Positions 31,121 to 59,573 of a DNA stretch of 64,000 bases are shown piece after piece. Positions within the stretch are counted from its first letter, which is position 1. Every line of letters begins with the position of its first letter. The notes beneath the pieces were generated by a model. That model ran no database searches, was not told the DNA's origin, and saw only the letters and a program-made list of their open reading frames with translations. The DNA is from a virus. Both the position numbers and the translations under genes were made by a program. Location of the stretch: positions 18,954-82,953 of IMG/VR virus record IMGVR_UViG_3300018080_000154; one strand, given 5' to 3'.

Positions 31121-31897
31121 TTACTCACCACCCTTCTTACACGCACAACCACCAGAAAGTTTCTCAATCTTGTTCTTCAACTCTTCTATTTCTAATCCAA
31201 GTTCATGAATTTTGTTGTCCCGTATTGATACTCGTTCCCAAAGAATAAGTTTTACAGATGCAAGTTCCTCGTCAAGATATTCTTTGAAAACTTCTCGTAT
31301 TTTTGATTTGACTTTACGTATGATCTTCATGTCAACCTCATAAAGCACCCTGTCAAGATCAGGGTGCAAGTTTAAGCCAAAATTGGTAGGTTTGAAAAAC
31401 CATCTAACTTTTTTGATAGCAGGCAAGACGTTAGACTCTTGAACTGGGTCTGAACAAGAATTGTGAACACATATCTGATTTGCAATAAAATTGTGACAAT
31501 CTTTTATTTCCAAATCATACACATCAACACATTTATTTATTTCTAGTACACCAGTTATTGTTCTAAACTGTCTATGTAATATTTCACCACTTCCAAATGC
31601 AAGAACCCTTTGTCCATTGCTCAAATCCATTGCTTTTACATATTCACCACCTTCAACCCTTACCATGTGCTCTGGTGTCAAATCCACATAACCACCACTA
31701 TTTCCACCACCTGACCAATGCAACCTTAATACTTTTTTATTGCCTGTCCTACCTGACCACACAACTTTTTTAATATCTAATTCTCTGTTTTCATCATAAC
31801 AAAAAACATCATCACCAGCCTTTACATCCTCAATGGGAACTAAACCACGGACAACATCAATCATTGTTCCTTTTGCAAGACACATCCCAATCCACAC
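31121..31897 (-). CDS. Hint-domain-containing ORF with coiled-coil C-terminus
   Basis: Intein blocks followed by 112 residues of unknown function. Confidence 0.6.
   Translation of the reverse strand: MWIGMCLAKGTMIDVVRGLVPIEDVKAGDDVFCYDENRELDIKKVVWSGRTGNKKVLRLHWSGGGNSGGYVDLTPEHMVRVEGGEYVKAMDLSNGQRVLAFGSGEILHRQFRTITGVLEINKCVDVYDLEIKDCHNFIANQICVHNSCSDPVQESNVLPAIKKVRWFFKPTNFGLNLHPDLDRVLYEVDMKIIRKVKSKIREVFKEYLDEELASVKLILWERVSIRDNKIHELGLEIEELKNKIEKLSGGCACKKGGE
31460..31882 (-). mobile_element. mini-intein (141 aa, no endonuclease)
   Basis: Block A CLAKGTMI, block B LTPEH, block F VYDLEI..HNFIAN, terminal HN followed by Ser. Confidence 0.9.
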
Positions 31898-31898
31898 T

Positions 31899-33482
31899 TC
31901 ATTTCTTACTTGTTATCCAAATGTCATCGTTATCATCTTCATCGAATGATAAAACTCTTACCTTTCTTGTTTGTCCAGCAACCTTGACATCAACATTGTC
32001 AACTTTACATTCTGACGTGAAATTTTCTGTAAATGCTTCTATTCCTCGTTCCAAAATTTGTTCGGCTACCCATTCGCGTGCAGCATCTACAGATCCTTCA
32101 AAATCTTCCGAGCATGCAAAATCTTTTATTGATATCTCACATTTGACAACAACGTCAAGAGGTGTATGATCAATTAATCGAGTTGGTTTTCTGACTATTC
32201 CCATTACATGTCCTCCACAAATCATAATAATATTGTCTCGGTCTAGGTTTTCTTCCAGTCTCTGTATACATGTTGCGTACCGTTGCTATTGAACAACCAA
32301 CACGGCGTGAAACCTTTTCAAAACTCAAACCGCTATCATATAAGTTTACAACGTCGTCGATATCTACATGACGTGTTTTGAAACTTCTTCTTTTCATGAT
32401 CTTTTTATCTCAAAAACATGAAAAACTAAATCACCATGAGACAACTTAACCGTACCAAGATGTCGTAAAGTTCCATAGTCTTCTATTGGATGGCCCGTTC
32501 CAGCAATACGTATTTTGGTTTTTATTTTATCTTCTTTTCTATCTGCTACAACAGATGCCCAAAGACATATCTGGTCTCTTTGATTGTCGACGTGAAGTAT
32601 TTCTGCCGACTCTGGTAAATCAATTTCTTGATAGTCTGCAATCATTAAAGGGTATTTGAAAATTTTTCTCATTTATTTGACTCCCATTTCTTAAAAATAA
32701 GTTCTGCAACATGTATCACCATGTCAACAGCCTCTTCAACGGTTTTCCACGTATGTATGCTTAAAATACTGTACATATTTTTGAATGCTTCATCCCAAAC
32801 CATTGACGCTTTACCATCAAGTTTTTCTATTAGAAGATCGAATGCTTTGTCAGCATACTCTTCAGCCTCTTTGATGTCGACAATAGTTGAAGACGACAGA
32901 AATGCAACAATCAAATCTCCGTAATACGTTTCAATTAATTCGTCGACTTCAACATTTTCGTTCATTTCTTCCTGATCTTCATTTTCTTTTTTTGTTTCTT
33001 CTTTTGACATAAAGAATCTCCTTAAATGTGAAAATCATGAAAAGCATGGTTCAAATCTAGTTTCACGATGAATAATTTCAAAACTAGATGATAGTTGAGT
33101 ACCGCTTCTCATATATTCAATCTTATTTTTACAGTACGGACAAATTCGTTCGTACTTTGTTGTAAACATCTGACCTTCACATTTATCACCACCGGGTCCC
33201 AAACATTTTCTCCACTTTTTTTCTTCATGTGCAAACACAGATTTCGTCAGGTACTTACTCATAAGGTATCTCCTTTGAATGCCGTTTTTCGACCACGTCG
33301 TTTAGTATTGTACTGATTGGTCCACATTCTATTAGATATACACTTAGAGCATCACGTAAATCTTGTTCATCTACTTTCTTGATATTTGCAATATGTTCAA
33401 CTCTTTCACCAAAGAATTCGTACAGTATTTTATCTATTTTTTCTTTGTCTATTGTTTTTCCAGAGTTTTCATAAAGTTCCAT
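31899..33482 (-). CDS. run of small ORFs: 31899-32225, 32170-32397 (HTH), 32394-32672, 32669-33010, 33035-33262 (Zn finger), 33255-33482
   Basis: Coupled ORFs; GLSFEKVSRRVGCSIATV HTH; C..C..CPYC. Confidence 0.55.
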
Positions 33483-34399: not shown

Positions 34400-34864
34400 C
34401 TACCCATGATTCGAGCTCCAACTAAATTGTTCAAACTCTGTATTAGATTGTTCGATTTGTTTTCGAATAAAATCAAACTCTTTACCAAGTTGATACGGTT
34501 CAGAGTAATAGACTTTCTTAATTCCACTGTTCAAAATAACTTTAGTACAATCTACGCAAGGTTGAGTCGTACAAAATAAAATAGAGCCTTCACATGAAAT
34601 TCCAAGACGTGCACATTGAATAATGCAATTCATCTCGGCATGAATACAATCAGCCAACTCAAGACGTTGACCGCTTTTAATTTTGAATTGTTCTCTTACA
34701 CATTTTTTTGGATGTGGTATCCCAGCAGGTACTCCATTGAAACCTGTCGCGATTATTCTTTTGTCCTTAACAAGAACCGCACCAACAGATCTTGAGCAAC
34801 ATGTACTCATTCTTGCACATTCTTGTGCAACGTTCATAAAAAATTCTAAATATCTTCTATTCAC
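34400..34864 (-). CDS. dCMP deaminase
   Basis: STC..VGAVLV..TGFNG, HAEMN, PCVDC; GAGG SD before GTG 34864. Confidence 0.92.
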   Translation of the reverse strand: MNRRYLEFFMNVAQECARMSTCCSRSVGAVLVKDKRIIATGFNGVPAGIPHPKKCVREQFKIKSGQRLELADCIHAEMNCIIQCARLGISCEGSILFCTTQPCVDCTKVILNSGIKKVYYSEPYQLGKEFDFIRKQIEQSNTEFEQFSWSSNHG

Positions 34865-34882
34865 TTCAACCTCTGTATTGTT

Positions 34883-34959
34883 TGACCGGGCGTGGAGTCG
34901 AACCACTTCACTGTGCCTCTCATTTCATCAAGGTCAGCCCCATCCAAGAGTCCCGGTCA
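34883..34959 (-). ncRNA. tRNA-like RNA / degenerate tRNA
   Basis: TGACCGGG/CCCGGTCA acceptor-like stem and GTGG-TTCGACT-CCAC T-arm; D and anticodon arms irregular. Confidence 0.6.
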
Positions 34960-46900: not shown

Positions 46901-47737
46901 CCAACTCCTGATGTTTTGATCATAATAGAACAATTTCTGAAAACGTTTCATGAAATCTATGTGTGCAACATCTTTCATTGTTGGAAAGTAACCACGATAT
47001 CGTTTCCATCTTTCACGTAGATACGGAACGTCAAAGTTTCCAGAGTTCCAACCAATGATTATGTCATATTTGTAGATGTATTCCCAAATGTCGTTGAGAA
47101 GTTCTTCTTCTGCTTTGTCAGTGTCTTCCTTTAAAAGAAAGAATTTTTTCTTACCATCTTGATCTACTGCTGCAAATGAAAGTATCCTGTCTCTACCTAC
47201 AACGATACCATCTTTTCTATCATCTGTTTCAATATCAAAAAAGATGTATCTAAAATCATTTGATACTTTGATTTCATGATCGATGCAGAATCGTTTGTAA
47301 TTTTTAAGATCACCCTCTAAAAGACTCACACCATGTTTATTGAGAAAATTTTTCAAACGAATACGATCATCTTCATTTCTATCTTCTGGATCTTTTTCGT
47401 TTTCCCATATCTCATTTATAGACTCATTGTCTACATATAGTTTTAGATACTGTCCACATATCTGAATTTTCTCGGTGTATTTCTTTAAAGACCCCCTGGG
47501 CAGTTTTTTCATATCACTCTTGCTGATAAAACAATACCATTTGAAGTCTGTTATCTTGACCTTTAATTTTTTCTTACAATACACACAACGATAGGTAAGA
47601 ACAATATCCCTACCATCGTCGTATGCATTAATAAATGAATCATTTGCCTCCCAGTATTTTTGCAGTTCCACACCAGGAGGTAAATGACCCATAGCCTCAG
47701 TCGGTATATAACCGATGATTTCATAGAGTTGTTTCAT
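43943..47737 (-). CDS. polB: family B DNA polymerase with intein
   Basis: Exonuclease FDIET, GWNS.NFD, YNIKD; DFKSLYPTII; K..ANSLYG; YGD[intein]TDS; KKQY. Confidence 0.96.
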   Translation of the reverse strand: MKQLYEIIGYIPTEAMGHLPPGVELQKYWEANDSFINAYDDGRDIVLTYRCVYCKKKLKVKITDFKWYCFISKSDMKKLPRGSLKKYTEKIQICGQYLKLYVDNESINEIWENEKDPEDRNEDDRIRLKNFLNKHGVSLLEGDLKNYKRFCIDHEIKVSNDFRYIFFDIETDDRKDGIVVGRDRILSFAAVDQDGKKKFFLLKEDTDKAEEELLNDIWEYIYKYDIIIGWNSGNFDVPYLRERWKRYRGYFPTMKDVAHIDFMKRFQKLFYYDQNIRSWSLNFISNYFIGDVKIEVNEGIYNLWQDNPTKLKKYNIKDCVLLLQLEQKLKVFELILLECQWCGTFPSKFYLSELLDNYILRYSNKNDVHFKSTSFGDKKEEEEHVVGGYVLDPVAGIHDNVYVFDFKSLYPTIIMTWNISLETFMKKKPKTTEINTVNEFWTKKNKKGMLPTIIRKLLDERKKYKEIQLSCPHGSKDYDAAFATQVIVKEMANSLYGTMAQRGNRYYDRDVAESITKAGHYLIKLTKQLMKEYFGYETLYGDSVPYDTYIPMKYSNNVVVEKIGDIFAAFPNRIVRDRGKEIIYLNDNNIRTMSGKGKWQKVRRIIRHKTRKKLYNITCPDSDFSVTTDHSFYSNGSLSTVNNYEDKMIYSSDIKIDTVDKRKLKFTNTVKRIDIKSLFDGYIKDTITRMDYSCEKNRDKTLTVGIKAKTKGFSDKLFKAKRFIKLDKDFGIVLGGYMAEGSVSKHNRLKFTSPILYCSKNKKEVKYFFSLARKVFGSDAVEYFEYHNGARIKLKTFLYARLLEELCGYGSSKKQFPDFSCMSNRDFVEGIFLGYQYGDGIKDLFDKDLNTGSIGGKSRKMVSQAFFLLNFYFDKDYYYRFRHKKEKNVVWVEFRNKDTANTKSLAAIKRWKEKRVLYKSEHTRKTDGYVYDLEVEEDHTFIDACGGTILHNTDSVFVKMDDNPDVSKVLEKIHEGYAEHLKKDFNIDISHIVLEHEKTYSKILLLHKKQYAGRLIEIDGEKVDKVYGKGLDYIKRDAIEYGRRLQIELIRQILYEDYNLKHYIDFIRKEMNIFETGKFDLKDITIMTRISRRPENYKQKAVHIRVAEDMIKSKKEFYVGMHIPYIVTEKNPRLQGIHVDDFDGTYSKEYYWDMKIYGLLLRLLACVFPKYDWDQYLFETIAKRKKKMTMYRKWLNDPKKKREYVEERINNDRFLSKKNRDVLLGKRSPFKVKQSPDALKVKKRICITTKKKGKKKCLVKKGSC
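44882..46111 (-). mobile_element. 410-aa intein with LAGLIDADG homing endonuclease in the PolB YGD/TDS motif
   Basis: SVPYDT start, VTTDHS, GGYMAEG and GYQYGDG, VYDLEV..HN|T. Confidence 0.95.
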
Positions 47738-48723
47738 TATTCTTCTTCAAAGAATTTTTTATCAATTGCATCGAGTTTTTCATACTCGTCATAAATCTTC
47801 CATTCATCAGGATCTGGTAATTTTACTCCACTTTCTTTATGAAGTTGAGCGTAATCACTACACGACCAGTTAAACGTTGCGTATGGTTGATCATCTGGCC
47901 ATCTACCACATCCTTTGAAAAGACAACCGAATGCCTCTGATAAAGTATAGTCTTGATGATAAACACATTTTTTAGCAAGATCACATCTTGGTCTAAGACA
48001 ACTTGCCAAAAGAGGTGAATACGTTTCAACCTGGTCACGAATAAGAATTGCAGTTTGAACCGTGTCAAACATCTCACAAGCCATGAGTCGTTGCATACAA
48101 TACGATCTCAGAGCCATGAAATTGCAACCATAGCGATAGTTATGTGTAACATTCATTGGCATTATGCAACGAGCAGTCTGAAACGAACCAGCACCGCGTT
48201 TCAAAATATCTTGATAAAGATCTTTGAATTGTTTCACAAACTCTTCGATGCGTGGTCTAAGTTCTGTATCATTTGCCAACTCGTTGGGTATTCTAAATCC
48301 GGCATCGAGTCGACTGTTATCTCGTACACCTTGACTTTGAAAAAATGCACCAACTCTTTGTCTAGCATGTTGATCAAATGCTGCACGTGTTGCACCACGA
48401 ACGGTGAAACTAAAACTTAGCGCCTCCAATGATTGAGGAAGAGTTTGACCGGTCAAAACTGCATTTACAATTGCAAATCTATGTTGAGGTTTGAGTTTTG
48501 GCCATTTGTTCTCAAATTTCTCATCACCCCAAGTAGAAGTCACATGTTCTACAATTGTCTTTGCATAGTTACCAGGATGATCAAACATCTCAACTGACAT
48601 ACCTTCGGCACCGACATAAAAATTTGTCTCCTTGTTTTCCATGTTCATTTCAGGCAAAGTGCCCATCTCTTTTCTGATTTCATTCTTTTCTTCAGCCCCA
48701 AGACCTTTGAACAAGTCTTTCAT
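47737..48723 (-). CDS. ThyX-family flavoprotein (atypical active site)
   Basis: LE..SFSF.V.GATRA..DQ.ARQR, QTARCIMP, NF.AL...R.C; signature deviates from RHR..S.R. Confidence 0.8.
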   Translation of the reverse strand: MKDLFKGLGAEEKNEIRKEMGTLPEMNMENKETNFYVGAEGMSVEMFDHPGNYAKTIVEHVTSTWGDEKFENKWPKLKPQHRFAIVNAVLTGQTLPQSLEALSFSFTVRGATRAAFDQHARQRVGAFFQSQGVRDNSRLDAGFRIPNELANDTELRPRIEEFVKQFKDLYQDILKRGAGSFQTARCIMPMNVTHNYRYGCNFMALRSYCMQRLMACEMFDTVQTAILIRDQVETYSPLLASCLRPRCDLAKKCVYHQDYTLSEAFGCLFKGCGRWPDDQPYATFNWSCSDYAQLHKESGVKLPDPDEWKIYDEYEKLDAIDKKFFEEE

Positions 48724-49268
48724 TTAGATTCCTCCATAATTATTCTCATTCTATCGAACACTTTCTTAACCTGCATTCTGTAGTTATTCATTTTACTCAT
48801 ACCGTAAATTTTCACATACGATGGATGCCAGATCTTGAAAACTTCATAACCATGATAACCTCTCAAAAAATTCCAAACGACATTGCCAAGAGATACAATT
48901 ATTTTTGGGTCAACTAAAATTACCTCGTTGTACAAAATTCTTCTATCACATTCAAGCATCATTTGAAGAGACAAAGAATTGTCAAACGTACTACACTTAA
49001 CAAGATTTGTGAAAAACAATGGCACGTTGTCGTAATTCATTTCATTTAGCATTTCAAGAAAAAATGAGTATCTTTCATTGTCCCATATCTTGTTACCTGG
49101 GTATCTACATTTACTGGGATTCATACCAACAAAAAGAACACCTCCAGGTTCTCCCCAACCTTCAAGTTTGTTCATACCTTTAGAGTCTTTTTTATTAGAA
49201 CAGATCAAACCTTCTGGACATCTTGCACATTTATGCATTTCATGATAGAGCGCATCAAGTTTTTTCAA
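48720..49268 (-). CDS. uracil-DNA glycosylase superfamily protein (family-4-like Fe-S cysteines)
   Basis: CARC, LFVGMNPS, FTNLVKC, EC..E..VDPKIIVSLG, HPSY. Confidence 0.82.
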   Translation of the reverse strand: MKKLDALYHEMHKCARCPEGLICSNKKDSKGMNKLEGWGEPGGVLFVGMNPSKCRYPGNKIWDNERYSFFLEMLNEMNYDNVPLFFTNLVKCSTFDNSLSLQMMLECDRRILYNEVILVDPKIIVSLGNVVWNFLRGYHGYEVFKIWHPSYVKIYGMSKMNNYRMQVKKVFDRMRIIMEESK

Positions 49269-50194
49269 AACAATTTTTCTCTTATCAAGATTTCATGTAG
49301 ATTTCTGACAACAATTACTCTTGGATCAACACCATCGACGACAGTGTACGGTGATATTAGATAAACACGATAACCTTGTTTTGAAACACTGTTTGCATAT
49401 CGTACATTGTCCTCAACCATAAACTTAAGTTTGGGAATATCTTTTACGATCTTCATATTTTTTCTTTCGTCAAACATGATTGCATCGTAAGCAATATTAT
49501 TGTCCTTAAGCCATTTTATAGTGTCAGGAAATAATCTGTTGTATTTCTTGTACGGCCTACTTGTGAGTACAACAATATTGTGACCAGAGTTTCTTAAATT
49601 GTGTGTGAATTCTGATGCACCTTCTTTTGGTTTTATTTTTAGTTTTTCACCACTTTGTCTGTATTCACTTTTAAGTTGATCGTACTTTAAAAGATCAACA
49701 TCAAGTTTCATCTGACTAAGAGAACAATATTCTGTACCAAGTTTTTTATTGACGTATTGTATCCACGGTTCAGGGTATTCACAAAGAACACCATCTAAAT
49801 CCAAGGCAACAACCTTTTGAGAAAACTCTGACTTTATCTTATGTTCTTGGAAATATCGTTGATTTACAACCTCGGTTTTTCTCCAGTACTCTTCTATGAA
49901 TTGTTCATACGATACACCAAGAAGTTGAAATGCACCCCATAGATACTTTTGACAATCAACAAGCTCTTCAATAGTGTTGGATACTATTTCTTCTTTGTCT
50001 TCAACCCGATGCATTTTAAATTTTCGAGTATTGAGAGCCTCGGTCGACTCTCTAATAAAACTCAAAATGAATTCCTTAAGATGGTCTGTAATTTGTGAAT
50101 GACTTAGATTGTCAAAATCTAACTCTTTGTCTTGAAAGAAATCTCTGTTGAATTTTAATTGATCCTCGTATGCTTCTTTACATTTGTCTTTCAT
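49265..50194 (-). CDS. dimeric dNTP pyrophosphatase (dUTPase/dCTPase-like) fused to HAD nucleotidase
   Basis: E..E...K.H, EELVD, K..VN.QR; DLDGVL, LTSRP, T..WL, VEDN. Confidence 0.82.
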   Translation of the reverse strand: MKDKCKEAYEDQLKFNRDFFQDKELDFDNLSHSQITDHLKEFILSFIRESTEALNTRKFKMHRVEDKEEIVSNTIEELVDCQKYLWGAFQLLGVSYEQFIEEYWRKTEVVNQRYFQEHKIKSEFSQKVVALDLDGVLCEYPEPWIQYVNKKLGTEYCSLSQMKLDVDLLKYDQLKSEYRQSGEKLKIKPKEGASEFTHNLRNSGHNIVVLTSRPYKKYNRLFPDTIKWLKDNNIAYDAIMFDERKNMKIVKDIPKLKFMVEDNVRYANSVSKQGYRVYLISPYTVVDGVDPRVIVVRNLHEILIREKLF

Positions 50195-51071
50195 GTTTGA
50201 CTATATCCTCAGTACGAATTGAATGGTTCCACCTTGAATACCTGCCAACGAATTCTACACCGTCAATCTCAGGTAGTACATCAATTGATTTTTTAATTTG
50301 ACTTCTTGGCAATTGTTGAGAAAACATTACAAACATATCTCTATCTACACAATGTTGTAACGCCTCTTCTTCACGCAGTCCTGTGAATTCCACAATATGC
50401 TGACCGTTCTCATACTGTGTAATTCTAGTAAAAGGTTGATTGATGAAATAGATATATGATTTTGTATTGTCGTAAAGAAAACAATTCCTCACAAGAACAA
50501 ATGTTTTATCAAGAGCACTAAAATCATATTCAAGATTTAGACCAGCAAGCTTATTGAAAACCGGTAACGGTAGCGTACTAACAAGATTTTCATAAACATA
50601 CTCATCATTTCTGGTGTACACAATTTTATTTTCAACATCTATTCTTTGCACGGTGTCTTCTATAATCCTTTCGTCTTCTGCAATTTCACGAGTTAGTCTT
50701 GAAATCACTGTATTCAAACCCACGTCGTAATACTCAAAAACATTTTTTGCATTACTCATTACACCAGATGTCATATTTTCAGACGATTCATGCCTAGATT
50801 TTTCAAAATACTTTTCTCTAAATTCGTCTGACGCCTTTGATGCAAAACGAAGACCATCTGAGTAACCAATGACTGCAAGTTTTTTATTCGTTATCATACT
50901 AAGATCGTTGACGAGAAAATCTGACATTTCTTTTGTTGCATGTAACATACGAGGACCCAACGGAAATGTACTTTTCATTTGACCGCCAACCTTATCTGTA
51001 ATGAGGTCGTATCCTTTACGATGATACGCTACAACAAGTCCTGCAATTCCACCCCCTAAAACAATATTCAT
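50178..51071 (-). CDS. FAD-dependent enzyme, UDP-galactopyranose mutase-like
   Basis: VLGGGIAGL, GG..GP..H, YENLVSTLPL, PFTRI, VGRYSRW. Confidence 0.7.
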   Translation of the reverse strand: MNIVLGGGIAGLVVAYHRKGYDLITDKVGGQMKSTFPLGPRMLHATKEMSDFLVNDLSMITNKKLAVIGYSDGLRFASKASDEFREKYFEKSRHESSENMTSGVMSNAKNVFEYYDVGLNTVISRLTREIAEDERIIEDTVQRIDVENKIVYTRNDEYVYENLVSTLPLPVFNKLAGLNLEYDFSALDKTFVLVRNCFLYDNTKSYIYFINQPFTRITQYENGQHIVEFTGLREEEALQHCVDRDMFVMFSQQLPRSQIKKSIDVLPEIDGVEFVGRYSRWNHSIRTEDIVKHERQM

Positions 51072-51080
51072 TTTTTTGTC

Positions 51081-51545
51081 CTATTCGTTCATTTCACTAA
51101 CACGTGAAATTATTTTTATTACATGTTCATGTACCTCGGCATCATCATCAAGTATCAAGAAATTTGGATGGTTTCTTAAAAAAGAGATGTACCCATTGTA
51201 CTCCTCATAAATTTCCTTTAGTTCTTCAAATTTGATGTGCCAATCACCTCTTGACTTGAACCTTCTTTCAATTACTTCCAAACTCGGTTGACGTATTACA
51301 AAAAGAGGATCATATCTTGAAATGAAATCATTCATATCGTCCAGTATTTTGTCATGCAAATCATCATGACGTTCTCGTACAGAATTATAGACAAGACTAC
51401 TTAAAAACATTCTATCGACAACAAGTTGTCTAAAATTTGTAGCCTTGTCGTATTCATGTCTAAGAGTTGTCTTACCGGCACAGTCACAACCCTCAAAAAC
51501 AATAATCCTATAATCCCTCTTTTTTATCCACGTTGGTGTATTCAT
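51081..51545 (-). CDS. dNMP (thymidylate-type) kinase
   Basis: FEGCDCAGKTT, VDR..LS..VY, RF..RGD. Confidence 0.85.
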   Translation of the reverse strand: MNTPTWIKKRDYRIIVFEGCDCAGKTTLRHEYDKATNFRQLVVDRMFLSSLVYNSVRERHDDLHDKILDDMNDFISRYDPLFVIRQPSLEVIERRFKSRGDWHIKFEELKEIYEEYNGYISFLRNHPNFLILDDDAEVHEHVIKIISRVSEMNE

Positions 51546-52044
51546 GAAGCGATCCTATTTGAATGAACATTTTCTTTGTACTGCTCTTAATTTTGAAATG
51601 ATTTTCTGTCAACTGATAAATCAAATGATTTATGATACCGAGGTCACATGACAATCTTGTGATGTCACTACTTCTAATGTTAACAACAGCCTGATGAGAG
51701 TAGTCTTCATCGAAAAGTAGAAGAATACTTTCCATGCACGGTACCATGTTTTCATTTTGATTGTAGTGATACTCTCTTGGAAATTGTATCAACAATCTTC
51801 TAGAAAATTTATCGCGTTCAAACTCTTTGCACAACGAAGGCACCTGCGGCAAAAACATATTGAAGTACGGTGTCAATTCTTCTTTATCAAAATCTTTGAA
51901 TTCTGATATATCTTGAGACTCCATCCAAAATGTTGCACCAACTTTCTCAACTATCTCCATGCCTCGGCGTACAACTTTTGTTGCGTTAATACTTGGATGT
52001 AAACATTGTCTACGTATTGATTGAATTGTATCTTTACTACTCAC
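51508..52044 (-). CDS. short thymidylate synthase homolog, dCMP-modifying type
   Basis: SRR, PC, RSSD...LSCD (Asp at the base-specificity position), GSLHEY as in T4 gp42-type enzymes. Confidence 0.75.
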   Translation of the reverse strand: MSSKDTIQSIRRQCLHPSINATKVVRRGMEIVEKVGATFWMESQDISEFKDFDKEELTPYFNMFLPQVPSLCKEFERDKFSRRLLIQFPREYHYNQNENMVPCMESILLLFDEDYSHQAVVNIRSSDITRLSCDLGIINHLIYQLTENHFKIKSSTKKMFIQIGSLHEYTNVDKKEGL

Positions 52045-53095
52045 AGGGTTTTCTCCTATTTGCTTTGTCTGAGATGTACCAGTACGGTTTGAAATCTATG
52101 TTCTTCATTATTGTCTTTGCAGTCATTTCAATACCCTGCTCAAATGTGTATTCCGGCTTCCATCCAGTCGACAGCAGTTTTGAATTGTCACCTAAATGGT
52201 TTTTGTGGTAATCAAGACGTTGAAGATATTTAATGTTATATCTACCGGGAAATTTATTCATCACGTAGTCAACATAATCTTGAAAACGTCTACCACTACC
52301 ATGTGCGATATTGAAATCCTCTCCCCAATAGTTATTGTCAACCAAATGCACAACCGCACTGGCAACGTCCTCGACTCTTATATAGTCTTTGAAATACTTA
52401 GGATGTAATCTTACTGGTAGTACTACATCTTTATCGTATTCCTTATTGTACAATCCGTTGTGCAAAATTCTAATTATTGCACTTGATGTATCATTTGGAA
52501 AATTACCAAAAGCAAATATCGGTCTAACGATAATAGTATTGGCCATTTCAAAAAGTTTTCTAACCTGTATCTCAGCATCAAGTTTATTGATACCATACAA
52601 TGTCTCTGGATCTATTTGTGCATTTTCATCAAATGAACTTTCATGGTATTTCTGAATGTCACCAGTAGAAAAACCAGATCCACCAAATATCGAAGTCGTA
52701 CCAAAAAATACAAGCCGTATGTCAAATTCTTTGCACACTTCAATTACGTTGAACGTTCCAAGAACATTGCTCAAAATAGAGTCCTTAGCCTTGACGTCAC
52801 AAATATCACTGCCGACATACGCTGCGTTGTGAACAATAAGGTCTGGTTTAAGCACCTCAACTGCCTTCTTAAATGACTCAAGATTTTCTATGTTGATTTC
52901 AGGTGTACGATGTTGAAATGATCTGTACAATTTTTTGTTTTCAAGAGAATACTCATTTTCAGTAATAAATTTTTCTCTTTCATGATATCCTGGCTTGTTC
53001 ACCACAACGTACGCACCATTTTCAAACATGTCGTGCATGCTTTCAGCAATGTAACCGCTTTCACCTGTTATGAATACTCTTCGTATCATTTTCAA
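52037..53095 (-). CDS. NAD-dependent NDP-sugar epimerase/dehydratase (extended SDR)
   Basis: ITGESGYIA, HNAA, NVLGT, YGINK, DYIRVEDVA, FNI. Confidence 0.9.
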   Translation of the reverse strand: MKMIRRVFITGESGYIAESMHDMFENGAYVVVNKPGYHEREKFITENEYSLENKKLYRSFQHRTPEINIENLESFKKAVEVLKPDLIVHNAAYVGSDICDVKAKDSILSNVLGTFNVIEVCKEFDIRLVFFGTTSIFGGSGFSTGDIQKYHESSFDENAQIDPETLYGINKLDAEIQVRKLFEMANTIIVRPIFAFGNFPNDTSSAIIRILHNGLYNKEYDKDVVLPVRLHPKYFKDYIRVEDVASAVVHLVDNNYWGEDFNIAHGSGRRFQDYVDYVMNKFPGRYNIKYLQRLDYHKNHLGDNSKLLSTGWKPEYTFEQGIEMTAKTIMKNIDFKPYWYISDKANRRKPCE

Positions 53096-53948: not shown

Positions 53949-54021
53949 TTCTATACTCCAAAATTCTAGTGACAAAAAGTTTAGACACAATTGTCTTACA
54001 AAAGATAGATATACATTTTTG

Positions 54022-54636
54022 TCAAGAAGTATAGACTAGATCTGACTGATTTCTAACTAATTGGGTAAGCTTATTTTTAAGACTAGAAAATTCGTCGTCC
54101 GAAAGTGACAACATTCTTTTTATTGTCCATTCGTTCCTGTTCTTTATCGACAAATCTAAAACGTGAAGAGACATGATACCGTCTAAAATATTTTTTTGAA
54201 GCGTTTTTCTTACTCCAGACACAACACAATCCAGATCTTCGGAATTGATGTATGTTTGTGATTGTATTTCTGGTAGGTTCTCAGTGGGTGGGGTTTTAAC
54301 TCTCCTGCGTTCTTTTCTTACTGATAGGTTGGTATTCTTTCTGGTATACATGAACGCAAAGGAACCGAAGTCTGTTTGATGCTTATCGTACATCATTTCA
54401 AAGCGTATTACCTTATTACCTCTAATCACTGCTTTGAAGGTTGGGACGAGGCGGTATTTTTCAACCGCCTCCCATATCCCGATTTTTGCTATCTGTTCAA
54501 AATCGTCTTGATCTTCAACTTGACTGAAATATTTCTTTCCAGTATGTTTGATCATCTTGGAGTATTTTTTGAACAAATCATTTAGAGCAGATTGATCACC
54601 CTGTTTTGCGAGTCGTATCAATTCTCGTTCCACCAT
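54022..54636 (-). CDS. sigma-70 family RNA polymerase sigma factor-like protein
   Basis: LIRLAKQGDQSALNDLFKKY, DDFEQ.A.IGIWEAVEKY, FGSFA (regions 1.2/2); region 4 degenerate. Confidence 0.75.
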   Translation of the reverse strand: MVERELIRLAKQGDQSALNDLFKKYSKMIKHTGKKYFSQVEDQDDFEQIAKIGIWEAVEKYRLVPTFKAVIRGNKVIRFEMMYDKHQTDFGSFAFMYTRKNTNLSVRKERRRVKTPPTENLPEIQSQTYINSEDLDCVVSGVRKTLQKNILDGIMSLHVLDLSIKNRNEWTIKRMLSLSDDEFSSLKNKLTQLVRNQSDLVYTS

Positions 54637-54910
54637 CTAGAGTCTCCTTCAACATCAATTTCAAGTCAGGATTATAAATGGAACATTCTACTTTCTTTCT
54701 ATTTTTCTTCAACCACAAAAATACTGAAAGATTTAGAATCTGGCCTATGTCGAATTCCTTTTCGTTGAAGCAAAACTCTTTAAGAATCTGGTGAAATTCG
54801 TCTTTCATGTGAAATGTGAAAGGTGTTTTACCATCTCTTTTGGATTGTTTCTTTTCCACGTCGCCATCCAATTCCGTATTACTGTATTTACGTATTTGTG
54901 TATCTATCAT
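54596..54910 (-). CDS. possible ribbon-helix-helix regulator
   Basis: FTFHMKDEFHQILKEFC pattern. Confidence 0.45.
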   Translation of the reverse strand: MIDTQIRKYSNTELDGDVEKKQSKRDGKTPFTFHMKDEFHQILKEFCFNEKEFDIGQILNLSVFLWLKKNRKKVECSIYNPDLKLMLKETLDGGTRIDTTRKTG

Positions 54911-54961
54911 CGTGGTATCTCCTTGTAAATAAGAAAATGCGTCGATTGTAATTTTTGCTGT

Positions 54962-55293
54962 CTATTTTTTAGACAGCATTACTGCATCATTTTCCGTAAG
55001 TTTTTCAACATCTTTAAGAACATTATCGAAATCCCTTTCGTAGTTTTTCCACACCCTGCTCAGCCATTTTGCTTTTGTCTCTTTGGGAAAAACATTAGTC
55101 CTAAGACCAATGTGTTTGAAAACAAGTTCAGGAGTCATAACACTGTTGCCATCCTTATCCATAAGGAATGAACCAAAAAGTCTCTCGTATATTTGTAGAC
55201 GTATTGCAAACTCCTTCCAATTTTCTTTTGTTATCTCTCCCATACCTATCGTCATCGTCAAAAGTATGAGACTCTCTGTTCGTTGTTTAAGAT
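54962..55293 (-). pseudogene. 3' part of a gene interrupted by the 55294-56750 insertion
   Basis: Joins in frame with 56751-56829 to give a 136-aa protein. Confidence 0.8.
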
Positions 55294-55560
55294 AGCATGA
55301 GTACAATACACATGACAATCACGTAAGTCTTTATGAGAAAAAATTATAGCATTCATTTCTGCATGAGCTGTCATATAATATTTATAAGGTCTTTCATGTG
55401 TCATCTTGTGTTCATCACAACCTGCGATAAATCCATTATATCCGAATGATACAGGACGATTATCATCTGTTGTAATAACACACCCTACTTTAGATGATGG
55501 ATCCTTAGATTTTAAAGAAACATCATATGCTATCTTCATGAAATAATCTTTCCAATTCAT
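55258..55560 (-). pseudogene. truncated second dCMP deaminase
   Basis: SKDPS.KVGC..GYNG..HAEMNA..VYCTHA, then cut just before the PCxxC zinc motif. Confidence 0.85.
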
Positions 55561-55568
55561 AATAACCC

Positions 55569-55763
55569 TTATGATATTCTATTCCAAGATTTTTTACTCT
55601 TTTGTATATTATTAACACGTTTATTATTAATTAATCTATAACCATGTAGTAAAGCTATAGCTACTGCAATTCTATAATCTATATTTATTAAAATTGCATA
55701 ACCTATCGTGAATAAAATTAACTCTAAAAATATTAATATGATTAATTTGATTTTAATATTCAT
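55569..55763 (-). CDS. small membrane protein
   Basis: Two hydrophobic segments; inside insertion. Confidence 0.55.
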   Translation of the reverse strand: MNIKIKLIILIFLELILFTIGYAILINIDYRIAVAIALLHGYRLINNKRVNNIQKSKKSWNRIS

Positions 55764-56623
55764 TTAAACTTCCTATTCCTTTCCATCCTACGTAGTGTAT
55801 CTTGAGGCCTCTCACCTTCTTCCATTTCATAACTACAACCTAAAACTCCACCTTTCCATGATCCTGATCTTTCTCCTACCTCATCACTAAATGCTATTTC
55901 AATAGATTGTTTATTCTTTACCATAAACCATGGCCATGAACACCATTCAAACCATTTTCTACGCCATTGCATTCTCTCCACAAATATCCAAGCCTTTACA
56001 TGTTGTACTATACCTGAATTTAATTTATATGAATAACTATAAACATCATTCCACCGACCATCAGGTGGTAAGTCGTTTTGAACTCCATTATTCCATCTAG
56101 CATGCCACTTGGTTGTGAATTGATTGCTGGTATCTATCCATATAGGACTCCATGATCCATCAGGCATCATTACCATTTCTTTATCATTCTGAAACTCCCA
56201 ATTAAAGAATGGTAGGAAGAATGACCAATCAAGTATATGAGATGACCCGTCGCTATTCCACTCATGGGCCTTCTTCCAGATTTTGATATTGATCATCCAA
56301 TCATGTATTGAAATTCCATTCAACCTAGCCTGATAATCTTTAGGTTTCAATACCCCATGTATAGAAAACCAAATAGAGATAAAAATTAACCCAATATGAA
56401 GTTGAATATCATCATAATTATCACCATCATATAGATTCAATTCCAATGCAATATTCTTATTATAAAAACATACTTCCCAACTAAACCTATTTAATTTACC
56501 TCGGAAGTGAGTCCACCACAAAGACCAATGTTTATTATTTGCCTTAGCTAAATTCTGAGTCCAAAAATACATATTATCCTCTGCTTTCTTCTGATGCTTA
56601 CTTAAGTTTATTTTAACCTTCAT
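55760..56623 (-). CDS. Trp-rich hypothetical phage protein
   Basis: 287 aa, GAGGAG SD, C-terminal FSDEVGERSGSWKGG. Confidence 0.75.
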   Translation of the reverse strand: MKVKINLSKHQKKAEDNMYFWTQNLAKANNKHWSLWWTHFRGKLNRFSWEVCFYNKNIALELNLYDGDNYDDIQLHIGLIFISIWFSIHGVLKPKDYQARLNGISIHDWMINIKIWKKAHEWNSDGSSHILDWSFFLPFFNWEFQNDKEMVMMPDGSWSPIWIDTSNQFTTKWHARWNNGVQNDLPPDGRWNDVYSYSYKLNSGIVQHVKAWIFVERMQWRRKWFEWCSWPWFMVKNKQSIEIAFSDEVGERSGSWKGGVLGCSYEMEEGERPQDTLRRMERNRKFK

Positions 56624-56665
56624 TATCTATTCTCTCCTCAATTCTATCATTACTAACCTCATAAG

Positions 56666-56750
56666 TGGGAGAGGAGGGATTTGAACCCCCACACTCTGTA
56701 CGAATACCGGATTTTAAGTCCGATGCGTCTACCAATTCCGCCACTCTCCC
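56666..56750 (-). tRNA. tRNA-Leu (UAA), CCA not encoded
   Basis: GGGAGAG/CTCTCCC acceptor, GCGGAATTGGTAGACGC D arm, TCGGA-CTTAAAA-TCCGG, long variable arm, GGGGG-TTCAAAT-CCCTC. Confidence 0.96.
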
Positions 56751-56829
56751 ATTGTTTACCATCGTCACGTGTTTCAAAACATACTTCATCTTTATTTTCG
56801 ATTCTTGTTAAATCCCAATTCAATGACAT
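56751..56829 (-). pseudogene. 5' part (26 codons) of the interrupted gene
   Basis: AAGGAGA SD, MSLNWDLTRIENKDEVCFETRDDGKQ ending at tRNA +1. Confidence 0.8.
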
Positions 56830-56840
56830 AATATTTCTCC

Positions 56841-57488
56841 TTAATATATTCTTGCAGTTTGTTCTTCGTTGAGACCCTTTTTTTCAGCTATCAGCATTCT
56901 TCTCTTCCAATATGCATCACGAACTTTCGTATGATGGATGTGCCATTTATAATTTTCATCAGAGTACATCTTGCCGACTAATTCTGGATAAGAATTTTCA
57001 AGTTCTTCAATCAATTTAGTTTGTTCTTCAATTTGTTGGTCAAGTGTTTTCATTCGTTACCTCATCATGTGAAAAAATCATCGATACATTTGTTTGCAAC
57101 GACATTAATGAATTCCTTTTCTTTACCATCGCCGCATAGTATCATCTCGGTAAACGTCTCAATGATTTCAGGTTGTGAGTTTAGTTCATCGATGTCGAAA
57201 TACTCTGCAGGTACTTGATACTTATACGTCGTCATCATTTACCTCCTTTACAACACCAAGTTTTAACAATGCCTCTGCTACAACATTTCCTATGTCAATG
57301 GAGTAATATTTACCACCATCAACTTTGAACATTATAGATTGACAACCACCAGATATTGCTACATGTATTTTCTTATCACACCACATAATCTCTGTTTCTT
57401 GTTCATGATACCCCATCATTGGTAAAATAAGTTTATCCTTTTCAATATGATGAGTGACTTCGATGTCTAGTTTTAGTTCTTTTTTCAT
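56841..57488 (-). CDS. small hypothetical ORFs (56841-57053, 57222-57488, plus a ~56-aa ORF between)
   Basis: SD motifs, packing. Confidence 0.55.
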
Positions 57489-57491
57489 TAC

Positions 57492-58412
57492 TTACTCCAT
57501 CAATTTCTTTTTGAGTTTTGTTTTCATTTTCGCAAGAGACTTCTTAAGATCTTCTGCAGTTCCACTCAATACTGTTTCATACATCTCAACCTTGGTTTTG
57601 AGCTCATCAAATTTCTTGAGTTTGTTTTCAACAACATACTCTTTAAGTTCACCAGCCTCATCAATTTCCTTATTGTAAACTTCAATGTCATATTTAATTT
57701 CAGCGACAAGTGACTTCCACATCCCTTTCTTTGCTTCCTTTGTATCAATGAGAGGTATCGGTGTTATGTCGACACCGTGAACAGAAAGTTCTTCAAACAG
57801 TTTCAACACATTTTCATAGACCTCTGAAGAAGAGTAAGGAAGAAAATAGATACCACCAGCACTTCTTACGTTGATCGACCTTCCATACATCCTGATGTAT
57901 TTAAGGACTGATGACCTTAACTGTGTTCCAGTGTAACAATCGCGATACGTATTGTAGCGATTCAGAATTTCCTTTCGGTATTTATCGGCATTGTCACCCT
58001 CGATACGTAGTTCATGCGTCTTCTTGTTGAAGATTACCCTGGTTTCTTTACGGAAATCGATATCGGTTTCAATATCGTTAACGTCTGCGTCTACAATCAT
58101 CCACGATGCCTCGTCCTCATCTGAACCGTCTTTTATTTTCTTGTAGAACAAATCGGCTCTTCTTTTCTTACGACCACCATTTGAGTTAAGTTTCTCAACC
58201 ATATCAGCAAGAGTATCTCTCATTGACCGTATCGCAGCCTCTTTTGAACTTACAACCTTTGCAATGTTATCTGGTATTCCAATGTTTTTAAGTATTTCTG
58301 AAAACGTTGTGTACGACATTTGAAAATCTGGAATGGCCCAATGAATGATCCAACCAATTAAGGGATAGCCTTCAATCTTCGGTAACAGTTTATCAATGTT
58401 TTTCTTTGACAT
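57492..58412 (-). CDS. conserved phage protein associated with the vWA/MoxR pair
   Basis: 306 aa; LIGWIIHW, VRSAGGIYFLP; strong SD. Confidence 0.7.
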   Translation of the reverse strand: MSKKNIDKLLPKIEGYPLIGWIIHWAIPDFQMSYTTFSEILKNIGIPDNIAKVVSSKEAAIRSMRDTLADMVEKLNSNGGRKKRRADLFYKKIKDGSDEDEASWMIVDADVNDIETDIDFRKETRVIFNKKTHELRIEGDNADKYRKEILNRYNTYRDCYTGTQLRSSVLKYIRMYGRSINVRSAGGIYFLPYSSSEVYENVLKLFEELSVHGVDITPIPLIDTKEAKKGMWKSLVAEIKYDIEVYNKEIDEAGELKEYVVENKLKKFDELKTKVEMYETVLSGTAEDLKKSLAKMKTKLKKKLME

Positions 58413-58460: not shown

Positions 58461-59573
58461 TTATTCGTCGTCAAGACCTAGATGCTTTTTGCAAACCATA
58501 ACCAATGTCTGCTGAGTTGTTTTTATTGCATCATCAAGTTTATGATTTTTCTTTCTATCGCCAAGACCTTCCAATGTTTTCTTTGCGTTCTTTATTTTCT
58601 TGTGACCTTCAACAGGATGAATTTCACCCTTATCCAATAGGTCTGCAATTTCTTGAACTGCGTCTGTCAACTCAATGATTTGTTCACCAAGTGGGTTTGC
58701 AAATTTGTTTACCAGTTTTCTTACGGGTTTTATTTGATCCGGCACAGACCAAAGAACATTGCAAAGAATATCGAGGTCGTCTTCCGTTACCTCCGAGTTG
58801 TCATTCAAATATGCATAGGCTTTCAAAACCCTAATACATTGTACCCATCTTCTATCAGATGTGAAAATTCCTTCCTTCTCAACCGATCGTCTAAGTTCAA
58901 CAAGAATGTCAAGTATTTTATCTGGTATTACCATTTCGTCTACTTCTTTTTGATAAGACTTCAGTTCTTCAAGTGTTATCGTTGGTATTTTCACCCGTGA
59001 TTTTGCATTTGCAATTTCATCAAACAATTCTCTTGCCATTGCATCGGACTGAATTCTTGGTACATCATAACGAAGAGCAAATCTATCATAAAGGGCTGCA
59101 AGTTCTTCTGCCTGGGGTATCTCATTTGATGCTGAGAATAAAACCTGAAGAGGTATCTTCGTTGGTGAACTACCGTTGTAGAAAATCCTTTCATTAATGA
59201 TTGGAAGAAGTGTGTTAAGAATAGCACTCGATCCTTTGAAAATTTCATCAAGAAATGCTATGTTTGCTTCTGGTAGTTTACCTTCAACAACTCTTTCGTA
59301 TTTGTCATGTTCCAGTGCTTTTAATGATAACGGTCCGAATACTTCTTCTGGTGTGGTAAATTTACTCATCAACCATGAAAAGTATTTACCACCTACCGCA
59401 CCACAAAGAGCATCACAGATTGCAGATTTTGCAGTACCAGGTGTTCCCAACATGAACAACATTTCTCTTGCCAATAATGCTGTCAACATGCCACGAATTA
59501 AATCTTGGCGTTCTTTGAATTTCTTACCCAATGCTTCTGCAATTGCTTTGATTTTGTTTTCTTTCTTAGACAT
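58461..59573 (-). CDS. MoxR/RavA-family AAA+ ATPase
   Basis: GTPGTAKS, FTTPEEVFGP, FLDEIFK, ASNE, ALYDRF, SDRRW. Confidence 0.92.
   Translation of the reverse strand: MSKKENKIKAIAEALGKKFKERQDLIRGMLTALLAREMLFMLGTPGTAKSAICDALCGAVGGKYFSWLMSKFTTPEEVFGPLSLKALEHDKYERVVEGKLPEANIAFLDEIFKGSSAILNTLLPIINERIFYNGSSPTKIPLQVLFSASNEIPQAEELAALYDRFALRYDVPRIQSDAMARELFDEIANAKSRVKIPTITLEELKSYQKEVDEMVIPDKILDILVELRRSVEKEGIFTSDRRWVQCIRVLKAYAYLNDNSEVTEDDLDILCNVLWSVPDQIKPVRKLVNKFANPLGEQIIELTDAVQEIADLLDKGEIHPVEGHKKIKNAKKTLEGLGDRKKNHKLDDAIKTTQQTLVMVCKKHLGLDDE

What the first reader, a model, noticed from the sequence alone, without database searches (positions are those of the whole stretch)
54962..56829. 1457-bp insertion starting at tRNA nucleotide +1 splits a gene that rejoins exactly in frame
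Seen: SD + ATG at 56829 gives MSLNWDLTRIENKDEVCFETRDDGKQ + T, then GGGAGAG, the first base of tRNA-Leu. At the other end a dCMP deaminase is cut at ..YCTHA and the sequence resumes AT CTT AAA CAA CGA. Deleting 55294-56750 gives ..GKQ-Y-LKQRTESLILLTMTIGMGEIT.., a 136-aa ORF (79+332 nt). There is only a 1-nt (T) junction ambiguity, with no TSD, IR, integrase or transposase, and the insert is AT-rich and CpG-poor. Inference: a piece of another phage genome was captured. The boundary at the RNase P cleavage position raises the possibility that a processed transcript was captured (RNA-templated), or that the break was directed by tRNA structure.
Basis: partly seen in the sequence, partly recalled or inferred. 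Interest (0 to 1): 0.85.

Follow-up and report, generated by a model that had tools for sequence, protein, structure and literature searches.

The report
Foreign tRNA/anti-CBASS cassette splitting a phage gene
An uncultured marine or sediment phage has a small conserved gene cut in two by a 1.46-kb piece of another phage's DNA carrying a leucine tRNA, a likely anti-CBASS immunity gene and a dead half of a deaminase gene; this is an ordinary but very clean example of how phages pick up accessory genes.

Summary
A single-copy gene of a large unnamed phage family is split. Codons 1-26 lie at 56829-56752 and the rest at 55291-54962.

Between the halves lies a 1457-bp block, 55294-56750:
- tRNA-Leu(UAA), 5' end at 56750
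- a 64-aa hydrophobic ORF
- the first 89 codons of a dCMP deaminase, cut just before its PCxxC motif

The block is the strongest compositional outlier in the 83-kb contig, and its Leu codon usage matches its own tRNA. Both junctions recur in contigs from other assemblies.

The block is being eroded. A 399-bp internal deletion variant exists.

No donor, empty-site allele, intron, reverse transcriptase, inverted repeats or recurrent cassette was found.

Best reading: capture of donor-phage DNA by joining without homology. The tRNA +1 boundary rests on parsimony, because homologues resolve the junction only to about ±3 codons. A 7-nt direct repeat near both junctions (chance about 1%) was missed.

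RNA-templated capture is unsupported but not excluded. The scan did not report this on other DNA.

The parts
56751..56829 (-). 5' remnant of the split gene: Shine-Dalgarno-led ATG, 26 codons, plus 1 nt (T at 56751). As it stands, the frame reads on into the tRNA to a stop at 56659 (56-aa ORF).
   Evidence: HMM nodes 1-26, 25.6 bits. Profile positions 1-21 at window 56761-56829. The 56-aa read-through ORF is seen on 3 contigs from Logan and ENA.
56665..56750 (-). tRNA-Leu, anticodon UAA, class II with a long variable arm. No CCA is encoded.
   Evidence: ARAGORN. Rfam RF00005, 61.8 bits. Cloverleaf fold -29.9 kcal/mol. It is the only tRNA in the 82,953-nt contig.
55760..56623 (-). 287-aa ORF of the Acb3 family (CBASS inhibitor), apparently intact.
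   Evidence: Pfam PF25187, E 1e-39, 137 bits against a cut-off of 27, residues 44-287 on model positions 16-245 of 245. PHROG 7203. 193 homologues at E <= 1e-5; all 120 listed carry PF25187, and the best non-self hit is 49% identical over 53% of the query.
55569..55763 (-). 64-aa ORF, very AT-rich (GC 0.19). It is hydrophobic and probably a small membrane protein (judged by eye). Its start overlaps the Acb3-like stop.
   Evidence: No Pfam or PHROG match. GC.
55294..55560 (-). 5' two-thirds of a dCMP deaminase gene (89 codons). It has the HAE motif but lacks PCxxC. The frame runs on into recipient sequence to TGA at 55258.
   Evidence: PF00383 positions 1-80 of 102 and PHROG 174. Alignment with full-length deaminases. 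30% identity to the phage's own 168-aa deaminase. The 100-aa ORF that crosses the junction is on 4 contigs.
54962..55293 (-). 3' remnant of the split gene (109 codons plus stop). An ATG at 55255 lies 2 nt after the TGA of the deaminase-remnant frame, so a 97-aa product could be made by translational coupling (inference).
   Evidence: HMM nodes 27-126, 119.8 bits. Profile positions 24-123. Gene callers report 97- and 99-aa products.
55294..56750 (.). Minimal foreign block, 1457 bp.
   Evidence: Composition outlier. Codon usage. Both ends are bridged with 0 mismatches by a 4335-nt Logan contig in runs X2 and X3. The left end is also bridged in X4 and X5.
56752..56758 (-). Copy 1 of the 7-nt direct repeat, 1 nt outside the block.
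55283..55289 (-). Copy 2 of the 7-nt direct repeat, 4 nt outside the block.
55344..55742 (.). 399-bp segment missing from the main contig of runs X2 and X3 (a derived deletion with 1 nt of shared sequence at the joint). It removes most of the 64-aa ORF and the start of the deaminase remnant.
   Evidence: table 5 (joint 55343 to 55743, depth 8.18 and 7.8) and table 8. A 151-nt contig covering 55482-55632 at depth 2.2 shows the undeleted form in the same runs.

Best explanation
A phage of a CpG-neutral, CTT-preferring lineage acquired a 1.46-kb stretch of a different, AT-rich, CpG-poor, TTA-preferring phage. The acquisition was a DNA-level joining event that did not depend on homology: end-joining or illegitimate recombination at a break inside a small conserved gene.

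The donor gene order was tRNA-Leu(UAA), then an Acb3-family gene, then a small ORF, then dCMP deaminase. One break fell at or 1 nt before the tRNA's first base. The other fell inside the deaminase, just before its zinc-binding PCxxC motif.

The block has no promoter of its own upstream of the tRNA. The tRNA must therefore be transcribed from the recipient's promoter through the 5' gene remnant and released by RNase P.

The selected cargo is the Acb3-like anti-CBASS gene, probably together with the tRNA that reads the cassette's dominant Leu codon. The 64-aa ORF and the deaminase stump are hitch-hikers that are already being deleted in the population.

The tRNA +1 boundary is most simply the outcome of chance plus selection. 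Any surviving insert needs the whole tRNA, and nothing upstream of it is needed.

Shown: the split, the foreignness, the cargo identities, junction reproducibility and the deletion variant. Inferred: the joining mechanism, which cargo is selected, and expression.
For: One gene in two complementary halves. The family is otherwise uninterrupted in 20 of 20 IMG/VR loci. 141 of the 150 best representatives start at profile position 1, and ours is the only one whose own start aligns to position 31.

Foreign composition. The Leu codon bias of the cassette matches its tRNA (17 of 28 against 302 of 1834, p = 2e-7).

The truncated deaminase is redundant with a complete resident gene that is 30% identical to it.

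Junction signatures show little or no homology. There is 1 nt of ambiguity at the cassette junctions and 1 nt at the 399-bp deletion joint. There are no terminal inverted repeats, no intron model and no RT.

Both junctions are seen in contigs from JGI, ENA and Logan assemblies.

The cassette is not a recurrent unit. Among 80 Acb3-family loci examined (of 286 found), 0 have an upstream tRNA-Leu and 0 have a nearby deaminase.
Against: No donor sequence and no empty-site allele was found, so the event is reconstructed and not observed.

A boundary within 1 nt of tRNA +1 is improbable for a random break, roughly 1% or less per event by my own estimate.

The 7-nt direct repeat flanking the block (chance about 1%) fits a staggered-cut or microhomology mechanism better than simple blunt joining.

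The host and its repair enzymes are unknown.
Confidence: 0.7

Rival explanations
1. RNA-templated capture. A donor-phage polycistronic transcript, already cut by RNase P at tRNA +1, was reverse-transcribed to its 5' end and the cDNA was joined into a break. In a target-primed version with staggered nicks, this would also produce the 7-nt duplication.
For: The left end coincides with the mature tRNA 5' end to within 1 nt. All four cargo genes are co-oriented, as in a single transcript. A flanking 7-nt direct repeat lies 1 and 4 nt outside the block. No strong terminator lies inside the block.
Against: No reverse transcriptase is in the contig (74% complete). There is no defined RNA 3' end, A-tail or CCA at the other junction. 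Co-orientation is the rule in phage modules anyway. The left boundary is fixed only by parsimony. This is one case found in a very large scan. No paper among the listings (titles and abstract starts only) describes such capture in a phage.
Confidence: 0.06
2. Structure-directed DNA break. In single-stranded donor DNA the tRNA gene folds into a cloverleaf, and a flap or structure-specific nuclease, or a stalled polymerase that switches template, defines an end at the base of the acceptor stem.
For: The boundary lies at the base of a stable fold (-29.9 kcal/mol as RNA).
Against: There is no comparable structure at the other junction, and no pairing between the two junction regions beyond shuffled controls (duplex -24.7 against a shuffle mean of -26.6). 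This is a single case and the enzyme is unknown.
Confidence: 0.08
3. A non-autonomous mobile element, mobilised in trans, that inserts with a 7-bp target duplication. The element would then be 56751-55290 and the original gene 132 codons long.
For: The 7-nt direct repeat. Removing the block plus one repeat copy is also in frame and still scores 150.3 bits on the family HMM.
Against: The repeats are not flush with recognisable element ends. There are no terminal inverted repeats and no transposase or integrase in the block. The right end lies inside a truncated gene. There is a single copy in the contig. The unit does not recur among the 80 Acb3-family loci examined. The 136-codon join scores 4 bits better.
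Confidence: 0.07
4. An intron or other RNA-level rejoining restores the 136-aa protein.
For: The exact in-frame relation of the two halves.
Against: No group I or II intron or other RNA family apart from the tRNA matches at E <= 1 in 54000-58000. The content (a tRNA, three ORFs, one of them truncated) is unlike any intron. In-frame status has a one-in-three chance.
Confidence: 0.01
5. Assembly chimera.
For: The window comes from a metagenome assembly.
Against: Both junctions are crossed by contigs from other runs with 0 mismatches. ORFs spanning each junction are on 3 and 4 contigs from three assembly sources. A chimera would not return to the same gene in frame.
Confidence: 0.01

Closest known systems
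Morons and novel joints of mosaic tailed-phage genomes (lambdoid phages, mycobacteriophages; recalled from the work of Hendrix, Juhala, Pedulla and Hatfull, not read here; one search gave only listings)
   Same: Extra accessory DNA with a different nucleotide composition, absent from relatives, acquired without flanking homology, and carrying genes useful in particular hosts.
   Different: Classical morons sit between genes and bring their own promoter and terminator. This block sits inside a gene, starts at the first base of a tRNA with no promoter of its own, and ends inside a truncated gene.
Acb3, anti-CBASS protein 3 (Pfam PF25187)
   Same: The 287-aa ORF matches the family model nearly end to end. 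Acb3 is described as an inhibitor of CD-NTases of type I and III CBASS (passages of bioRxiv 10.1101/2025.07.23.666291; one passage of 10.1101/2025.06.06.658234).
   Different: The ORF is at most 49% identical to any other member found and has about 43 extra N-terminal residues. Its activity is untested. The original Acb3 paper (reference 45 of the first preprint) was not read.
tRNA-derived SINEs and processed retro-insertions of eukaryotes (recalled)
   Same: The insert begins at the 5' end of a tRNA-type RNA, and a short direct repeat flanks it.
   Different: There is no A-rich 3' end, no known reverse transcriptase partner, and the cargo is 1.4 kb of protein-coding phage genes. The repeat is offset from the ends.
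Earlier scan note e1-5376890: a 754-bp cassette carrying an intact tRNA-Leu(UAA) that splits the resident tRNA-Leu of a marine phage
   Same: Foreign phage DNA that brings a tRNA-Leu(UAA) and interrupts a resident gene in a marine phage.
   Different: There the target is a tRNA anticodon loop and the cut point recurs in several phages. Here the target is a protein gene and no recurrence was found. That note was not checked here.

Membership tests
tRNA-Leu(UAA) | Cloverleaf with a long variable arm and anticodon TAA; scores above the Rfam tRNA threshold | tested here: met
   ARAGORN. Rfam 61.8 bits against 29, model positions 1-71 of 71. Fold.
Acb3 (PF25187) | Sequence match to the family model above the curated cut-off over most of its length | tested here: met
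   137.2 bits against 27, model positions 16-245 of 245.
Acb3 (PF25187) | Inhibition of CBASS CD-NTases | not testable with these tools
dCMP deaminase (PF00383) | Both zinc-binding motifs, HAE and PCxxC | tested here: not met
   HAE is present. The frame leaves the family alignment exactly where PCxxC should begin. It is a fragment, not a functional member.
Classical phage moron | Extra DNA relative to relatives, with a distinct composition | tested here: met
Classical phage moron | Own promoter and terminator, located between genes | tested here: not met
   The block starts at tRNA +1 inside a gene. Promoter-like and terminator-like hits are no more frequent than in shuffles (18 against 19.0 +/- 4.4; 2 against 1.6 +/- 1.3).
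Self-splicing intron (group I or II) | Conserved catalytic RNA structure | tested here: not met
   No Rfam match apart from the tRNA and a sub-threshold sX4 hit overlapping the tRNA.
Insertion sequence / MITE | Terminal inverted repeats, a transposase or several copies | tested here: not met
   No terminal inverted repeats at the ends. No transposase domain in the block's ORFs. A single copy in the contig.
Insertion sequence / MITE | Target-site duplication flush with the element ends | tested here: inconclusive
   A 7-nt direct repeat lies 1 and 4 nt outside the minimal block; chance is about 1%. No empty site is available.
Retroposed (RNA-derived) insertion | 5' end at an RNA 5' end | tested here: inconclusive
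   It coincides with tRNA +1 within 1 nt under the parsimonious join, but homologues allow about +/- 3 codons.
Retroposed (RNA-derived) insertion | Defined RNA 3' end or A-tail, and a reverse transcriptase source | tested here: not met
   The right end lies mid-gene without a tail. PF00078 is absent from the contig (the contig is 74% complete and the host is unknown).

The most novel reading that the evidence does not exclude
The block is a retro-insertion. A donor-phage tRNA-mRNA transcript, trimmed by RNase P to tRNA +1, was copied into DNA (by a host or co-infecting element's reverse transcriptase, or by a DNA polymerase with RT activity) and joined at a staggered break, leaving the 7-nt duplication. 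That would be RNA-mediated horizontal transfer of an anti-defence gene between phages.
Probability: 0.06. Interest if true: 0.85.

Novelty: new member of a known kind. Interest (0 to 1): 0.4.

Why it matters
This is a caught-in-the-act example of how anti-defence genes spread between unrelated phages. An Acb3-family anti-CBASS gene travels with a tRNA that reads its preferred Leu codon and is dropped into a conserved gene. A truncated neighbour gene preserves the donor's gene order, and population variants show the useless parts being trimmed away.

It gives concrete junction sequences, with 0-1 nt of homology and a possible 7-nt duplication, for a process that is usually only inferred.

The tRNA +1 boundary is a hypothesis generator. 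If a survey showed such boundaries to be enriched, it would point to tRNA structure or tRNA processing as a driver of phage mosaicism.

The interrupted gene also belongs to a very large phage family (more than 2000 clusters at 50% identity) that has no Pfam or PHROG entry.

Tried and rejected
Donor search. None of these found a near-identical donor, so whether homology stops at tRNA +1 could not be tested.
- Megablast of 54400-57400 against 50,697 phage records: no match.
- Distant blastn of the block: only the tRNA part matched, about 78% identity to cyanophage tRNA-Leu genes.
- tblastn of the Acb3-like ORF: 50 records, all below 60% identity.
- The search for related loci with the Acb3-like ORF in viral contigs and metagenome contigs: none.
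- Deaminase fragment in viral contigs: 8 loci at 36-47% identity.
- The 5.8-billion-protein search: the best non-self hit is 49% identical over 53% of the query.

Search for an empty-site or close relative. These also failed.
- C-terminal piece in viral contigs: one locus at 50% identity.
- Neighbouring DUF6744 gene and ATPase gene: none.
- Exact 34-nt pattern in metagenome contigs and viral contigs: 0 hits. The tools say records near the window's own may be left out.
- In the four runs laid there was no joint from 55293 to 56751. These are contigs, so rare alleles would be invisible.

Gene context around Acb3 homologues in Vibrio phage MAR10 and Thalassomonas phage BA3 showed no tRNA or deaminase neighbour.

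RNA evidence: no RNA holder was listed.

Function of the split family:
- No Pfam or PHROG match for five full-length members.
- No PDB relative; the best hit is E 0.35.

Junction fine-mapping with the family HMM did not resolve the boundary.

Literature: three searches. For some searches I saw only listings. For one search I read passages of two preprints. I found no paper on tRNA +1 insertion boundaries in those listings, which is not proof that none exists. No supplementary files were requested.

Earlier scan notes by sequence gave nothing relevant.
Full report
**What is there**

The window is bases 18954-82953 of an 82,953-bp IMG/VR virus contig, classed as linear and about 74% complete. 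All genes discussed lie on the minus strand.

A Shine-Dalgarno-led ATG at 56829 opens 26 codons. Then comes a T at 56751, and then the first base of tRNA-Leu(UAA). ARAGORN places the tRNA at 56750-56665. Rfam places it at 56750-56666 with 61.8 bits over the whole model.

Downstream of the tRNA follow three ORFs:
- A 287-aa ORF at 56623-55760.
- A 64-aa hydrophobic ORF at 55763-55569.
- An ORF starting at 55560 that matches dCMP deaminases for 89 codons (PF00383 positions 1-80 of 102, PHROG 174).

The 287-aa ORF is a clear member of Pfam PF25187, 'CBASS inhibitor Acb3' (E 1e-39, model positions 16-245 of 245). According to passages in two preprints, Acb3 inhibits CD-NTases of type I and III CBASS. 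I did not read the original paper.

**The gene is truly split**

Homologues of the downstream piece carry an N-terminus that matches the upstream 26 codons. They were found in the protein collection, in Brevundimonas phage BabaJaga and in an IMG/VR contig.

A profile search found 3418 representatives at E <= 1e-3 and 2034 at E <= 1e-10. Of the 150 best, 141 align from profile position 1. The window's product is the only one whose own start aligns to position 31.

An HMM built from 153 homologues puts the upstream piece on nodes 1-26 (25.6 bits) and the downstream piece on nodes 27-126 (119.8 bits). The script-made join scores 154.3 bits over nodes 1-126.

A six-frame search of the whole contig with a separate 70-row profile finds just these two pieces and no second copy. 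All 20 of 20 family loci fetched from IMG/VR hold an uninterrupted ORF. The family has no Pfam, PHROG or PDB relative.

**The block is foreign and is one piece**

- GC is 0.330 against 0.383 for the rest of the contig (2.4th percentile of 1457-nt windows).
- CpG observed/expected is 0.50 against 1.04, lower than every other window (minimum 0.63).
- Trinucleotide distance is 0.385 against a maximum of 0.297. Most of the CpG depletion lies in the Acb3-like gene (7 CG in 864 nt).
- The block's ORFs use TTA for 17 of 28 Leu codons. The rest of the contig uses TTA for 302 of 1834 and prefers CTT (Fisher p = 2e-7). The tRNA-Leu(UAA) therefore fits its neighbours, not the recipient.
- The phage already has a complete 168-aa dCMP deaminase at 34906-34400 that is only 30% identical to the fragment. 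The fragment is not an internal duplication.

**The boundaries**

The right boundary is sharp. The fragment ends where four aligned full-length deaminases and the resident one have Pro-Cys of PCxxC. The next codon cannot encode Pro.

The left boundary is less certain. The tRNA must be donor DNA, so the block reaches at least 56750. However, the junction lies in a length-variable part of the family.

A 7-nt direct repeat lies 1 nt outside the left end and 4 nt outside the right end. Only 807 of 81,466 positions in this contig show such a repeat by chance. It could be a target duplication, a trace of microhomology, or a native repeat. Removing the block plus one repeat copy is also in frame, at 150.3 bits.

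There are no terminal inverted repeats. The two junction regions do not pair beyond shuffled controls. Promoter-like and terminator-like hits show no excess over shuffles.

**The junctions are real, and the block is decaying**

- Nine public runs (sediment and seawater metagenomes, seven study codes) hold the stretch.
- In runs X2 and X3 a 4335-nt Logan contig matches 54000-55343 and 55743-58000 with no mismatch. It crosses both junctions but skips 55344-55742 (399 bp, 1 nt shared at the joint).
- A 151-nt contig at lower depth carries part of the skipped segment in the same runs.
- X4 and X5 contigs cross the left junction.
- X2/X3 and X4/X5 share contig lengths and may not be independent.
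- ORFs that span the left and right junctions occur on 3 and 4 contigs from JGI, ENA and Logan assemblies.
- A third form exists. P0280, from a 2011-nt JGI contig, joins an inverted piece of the deaminase fragment to the downstream gene piece. I could not fetch that contig, so it may be real or a chimera.

The 399-bp deletion must be derived, because it removes the start of a recognisable deaminase. It spares the tRNA and the Acb3-like gene.

**What was not found**

- No near-identical donor.
- No close relative of the recipient.
- No empty-site contig.
- No intron model.
- No reverse transcriptase in the contig.
- No recurrence of a tRNA-Leu/Acb3/deaminase unit. Among 80 Acb3-family loci examined (of 286 found), 3 had any tRNA, none had an upstream tRNA-Leu, and none had a deaminase.

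**Interpretation**

The best-supported reading is a recent capture of donor-phage DNA at a break in a dispensable or partly dispensable gene, without dependence on homology.

The event looks recent for two reasons. Both gene remnants still look like consensus family sequence, and the foreign composition has not drifted toward that of the recipient.

The Acb3-like gene, and probably the tRNA, are kept by selection. The rest is being lost.

The tRNA has no promoter of its own, so it depends on read-through transcription and RNase P. The downstream gene piece might still be translated from the ATG at 55255, 2 nt after the stop of the deaminase-remnant frame (inference).

The tRNA +1 boundary is intriguing, but it is a single, parsimony-dependent coincidence. 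RNA-templated capture, a structure-directed break and a non-autonomous element with a 7-bp duplication each remain possible at low probability. An empty-site allele, a donor sequence or a boundary survey would decide between them.

**Verdict**

The 'captured phage DNA' reading is supported, and the RNA or structure-directed ideas are unsupported but open. This is a new member of a known kind (accessory-gene capture in a mosaic phage genome). It is made more interesting by its anti-CBASS cargo, its clean junctions and the visible decay series.

Noticed in passing
window 54962-55293 and 56751-56829; relatives P0005-P0008, P0129-P0277, L012-L031: The interrupted gene belongs to a very large family of 106-190-aa phage proteins. 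The family has a conserved N-terminal motif and two conserved central motifs. It has 3418 representatives at E <= 1e-3 and 2034 at E <= 1e-10, yet no Pfam, PHROG or PDB match.
   Followed up: partly
window 55344-55742: Runs X2 and X3 carry a variant of the phage lacking these 399 bp inside the foreign block. The undeleted form is present at lower depth in the same runs.
   Followed up: partly
P0280 (JGI contig of 2011 nt; corresponds to window + strand 55394-55444 joined to the minus strand near 55248): A third structural form. An inverted piece of the deaminase fragment is fused to the downstream gene piece, whose remaining 94 residues are identical to the window's. It is either a real inversion/deletion or an assembly chimera.
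   Followed up: partly
window 34400-34906 (-): The phage encodes its own complete 168-aa dCMP deaminase with both zinc motifs. Earlier scan notes place a pyrimidine-nucleotide tailoring cassette at 47737-53095 of the same window.
   Followed up: partly
window 55742-55764 and 56602-56624: The first 23 nt around the start codons of the 64-aa ORF and the Acb3-like ORF are 83% identical (19 of 23). One edge of the 399-bp deletion abuts the first copy.
   Followed up: no
window 31148-32047 and 57248-57847: Other CpG-poor islands in a contig whose mean CpG observed/expected is 1.02. The first (minimum 0.00) coincides with the mini-intein noted earlier by the scan. The second (minimum 0.21) lies just upstream of the split gene, over an 88-aa ORF and the end of the DUF6744 gene.
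   Followed up: no
L060 3001-4027: In one IMG/VR contig an Acb3-family gene is followed within about 220 nt by an array of five tRNA genes (Arg and four Ser).
   Followed up: no
L013 2989-3799: In a 173-kb IMG/VR contig an uninterrupted member of the split-gene family is followed about 350 nt downstream by a tRNA-Tyr gene.
   Followed up: no
window 54022-54636, 57492-58412, 58461-59573 (-): Neighbouring genes are a sigma-factor-like protein (PHROG 351; Sigma70_r2 just below the Pfam cut-off), a DUF6744 protein, and a 370-aa ORF that I took by eye for an AAA-type ATPase (no family search was run on it). No close relative of the last two was found in IMG/VR.
   Followed up: no
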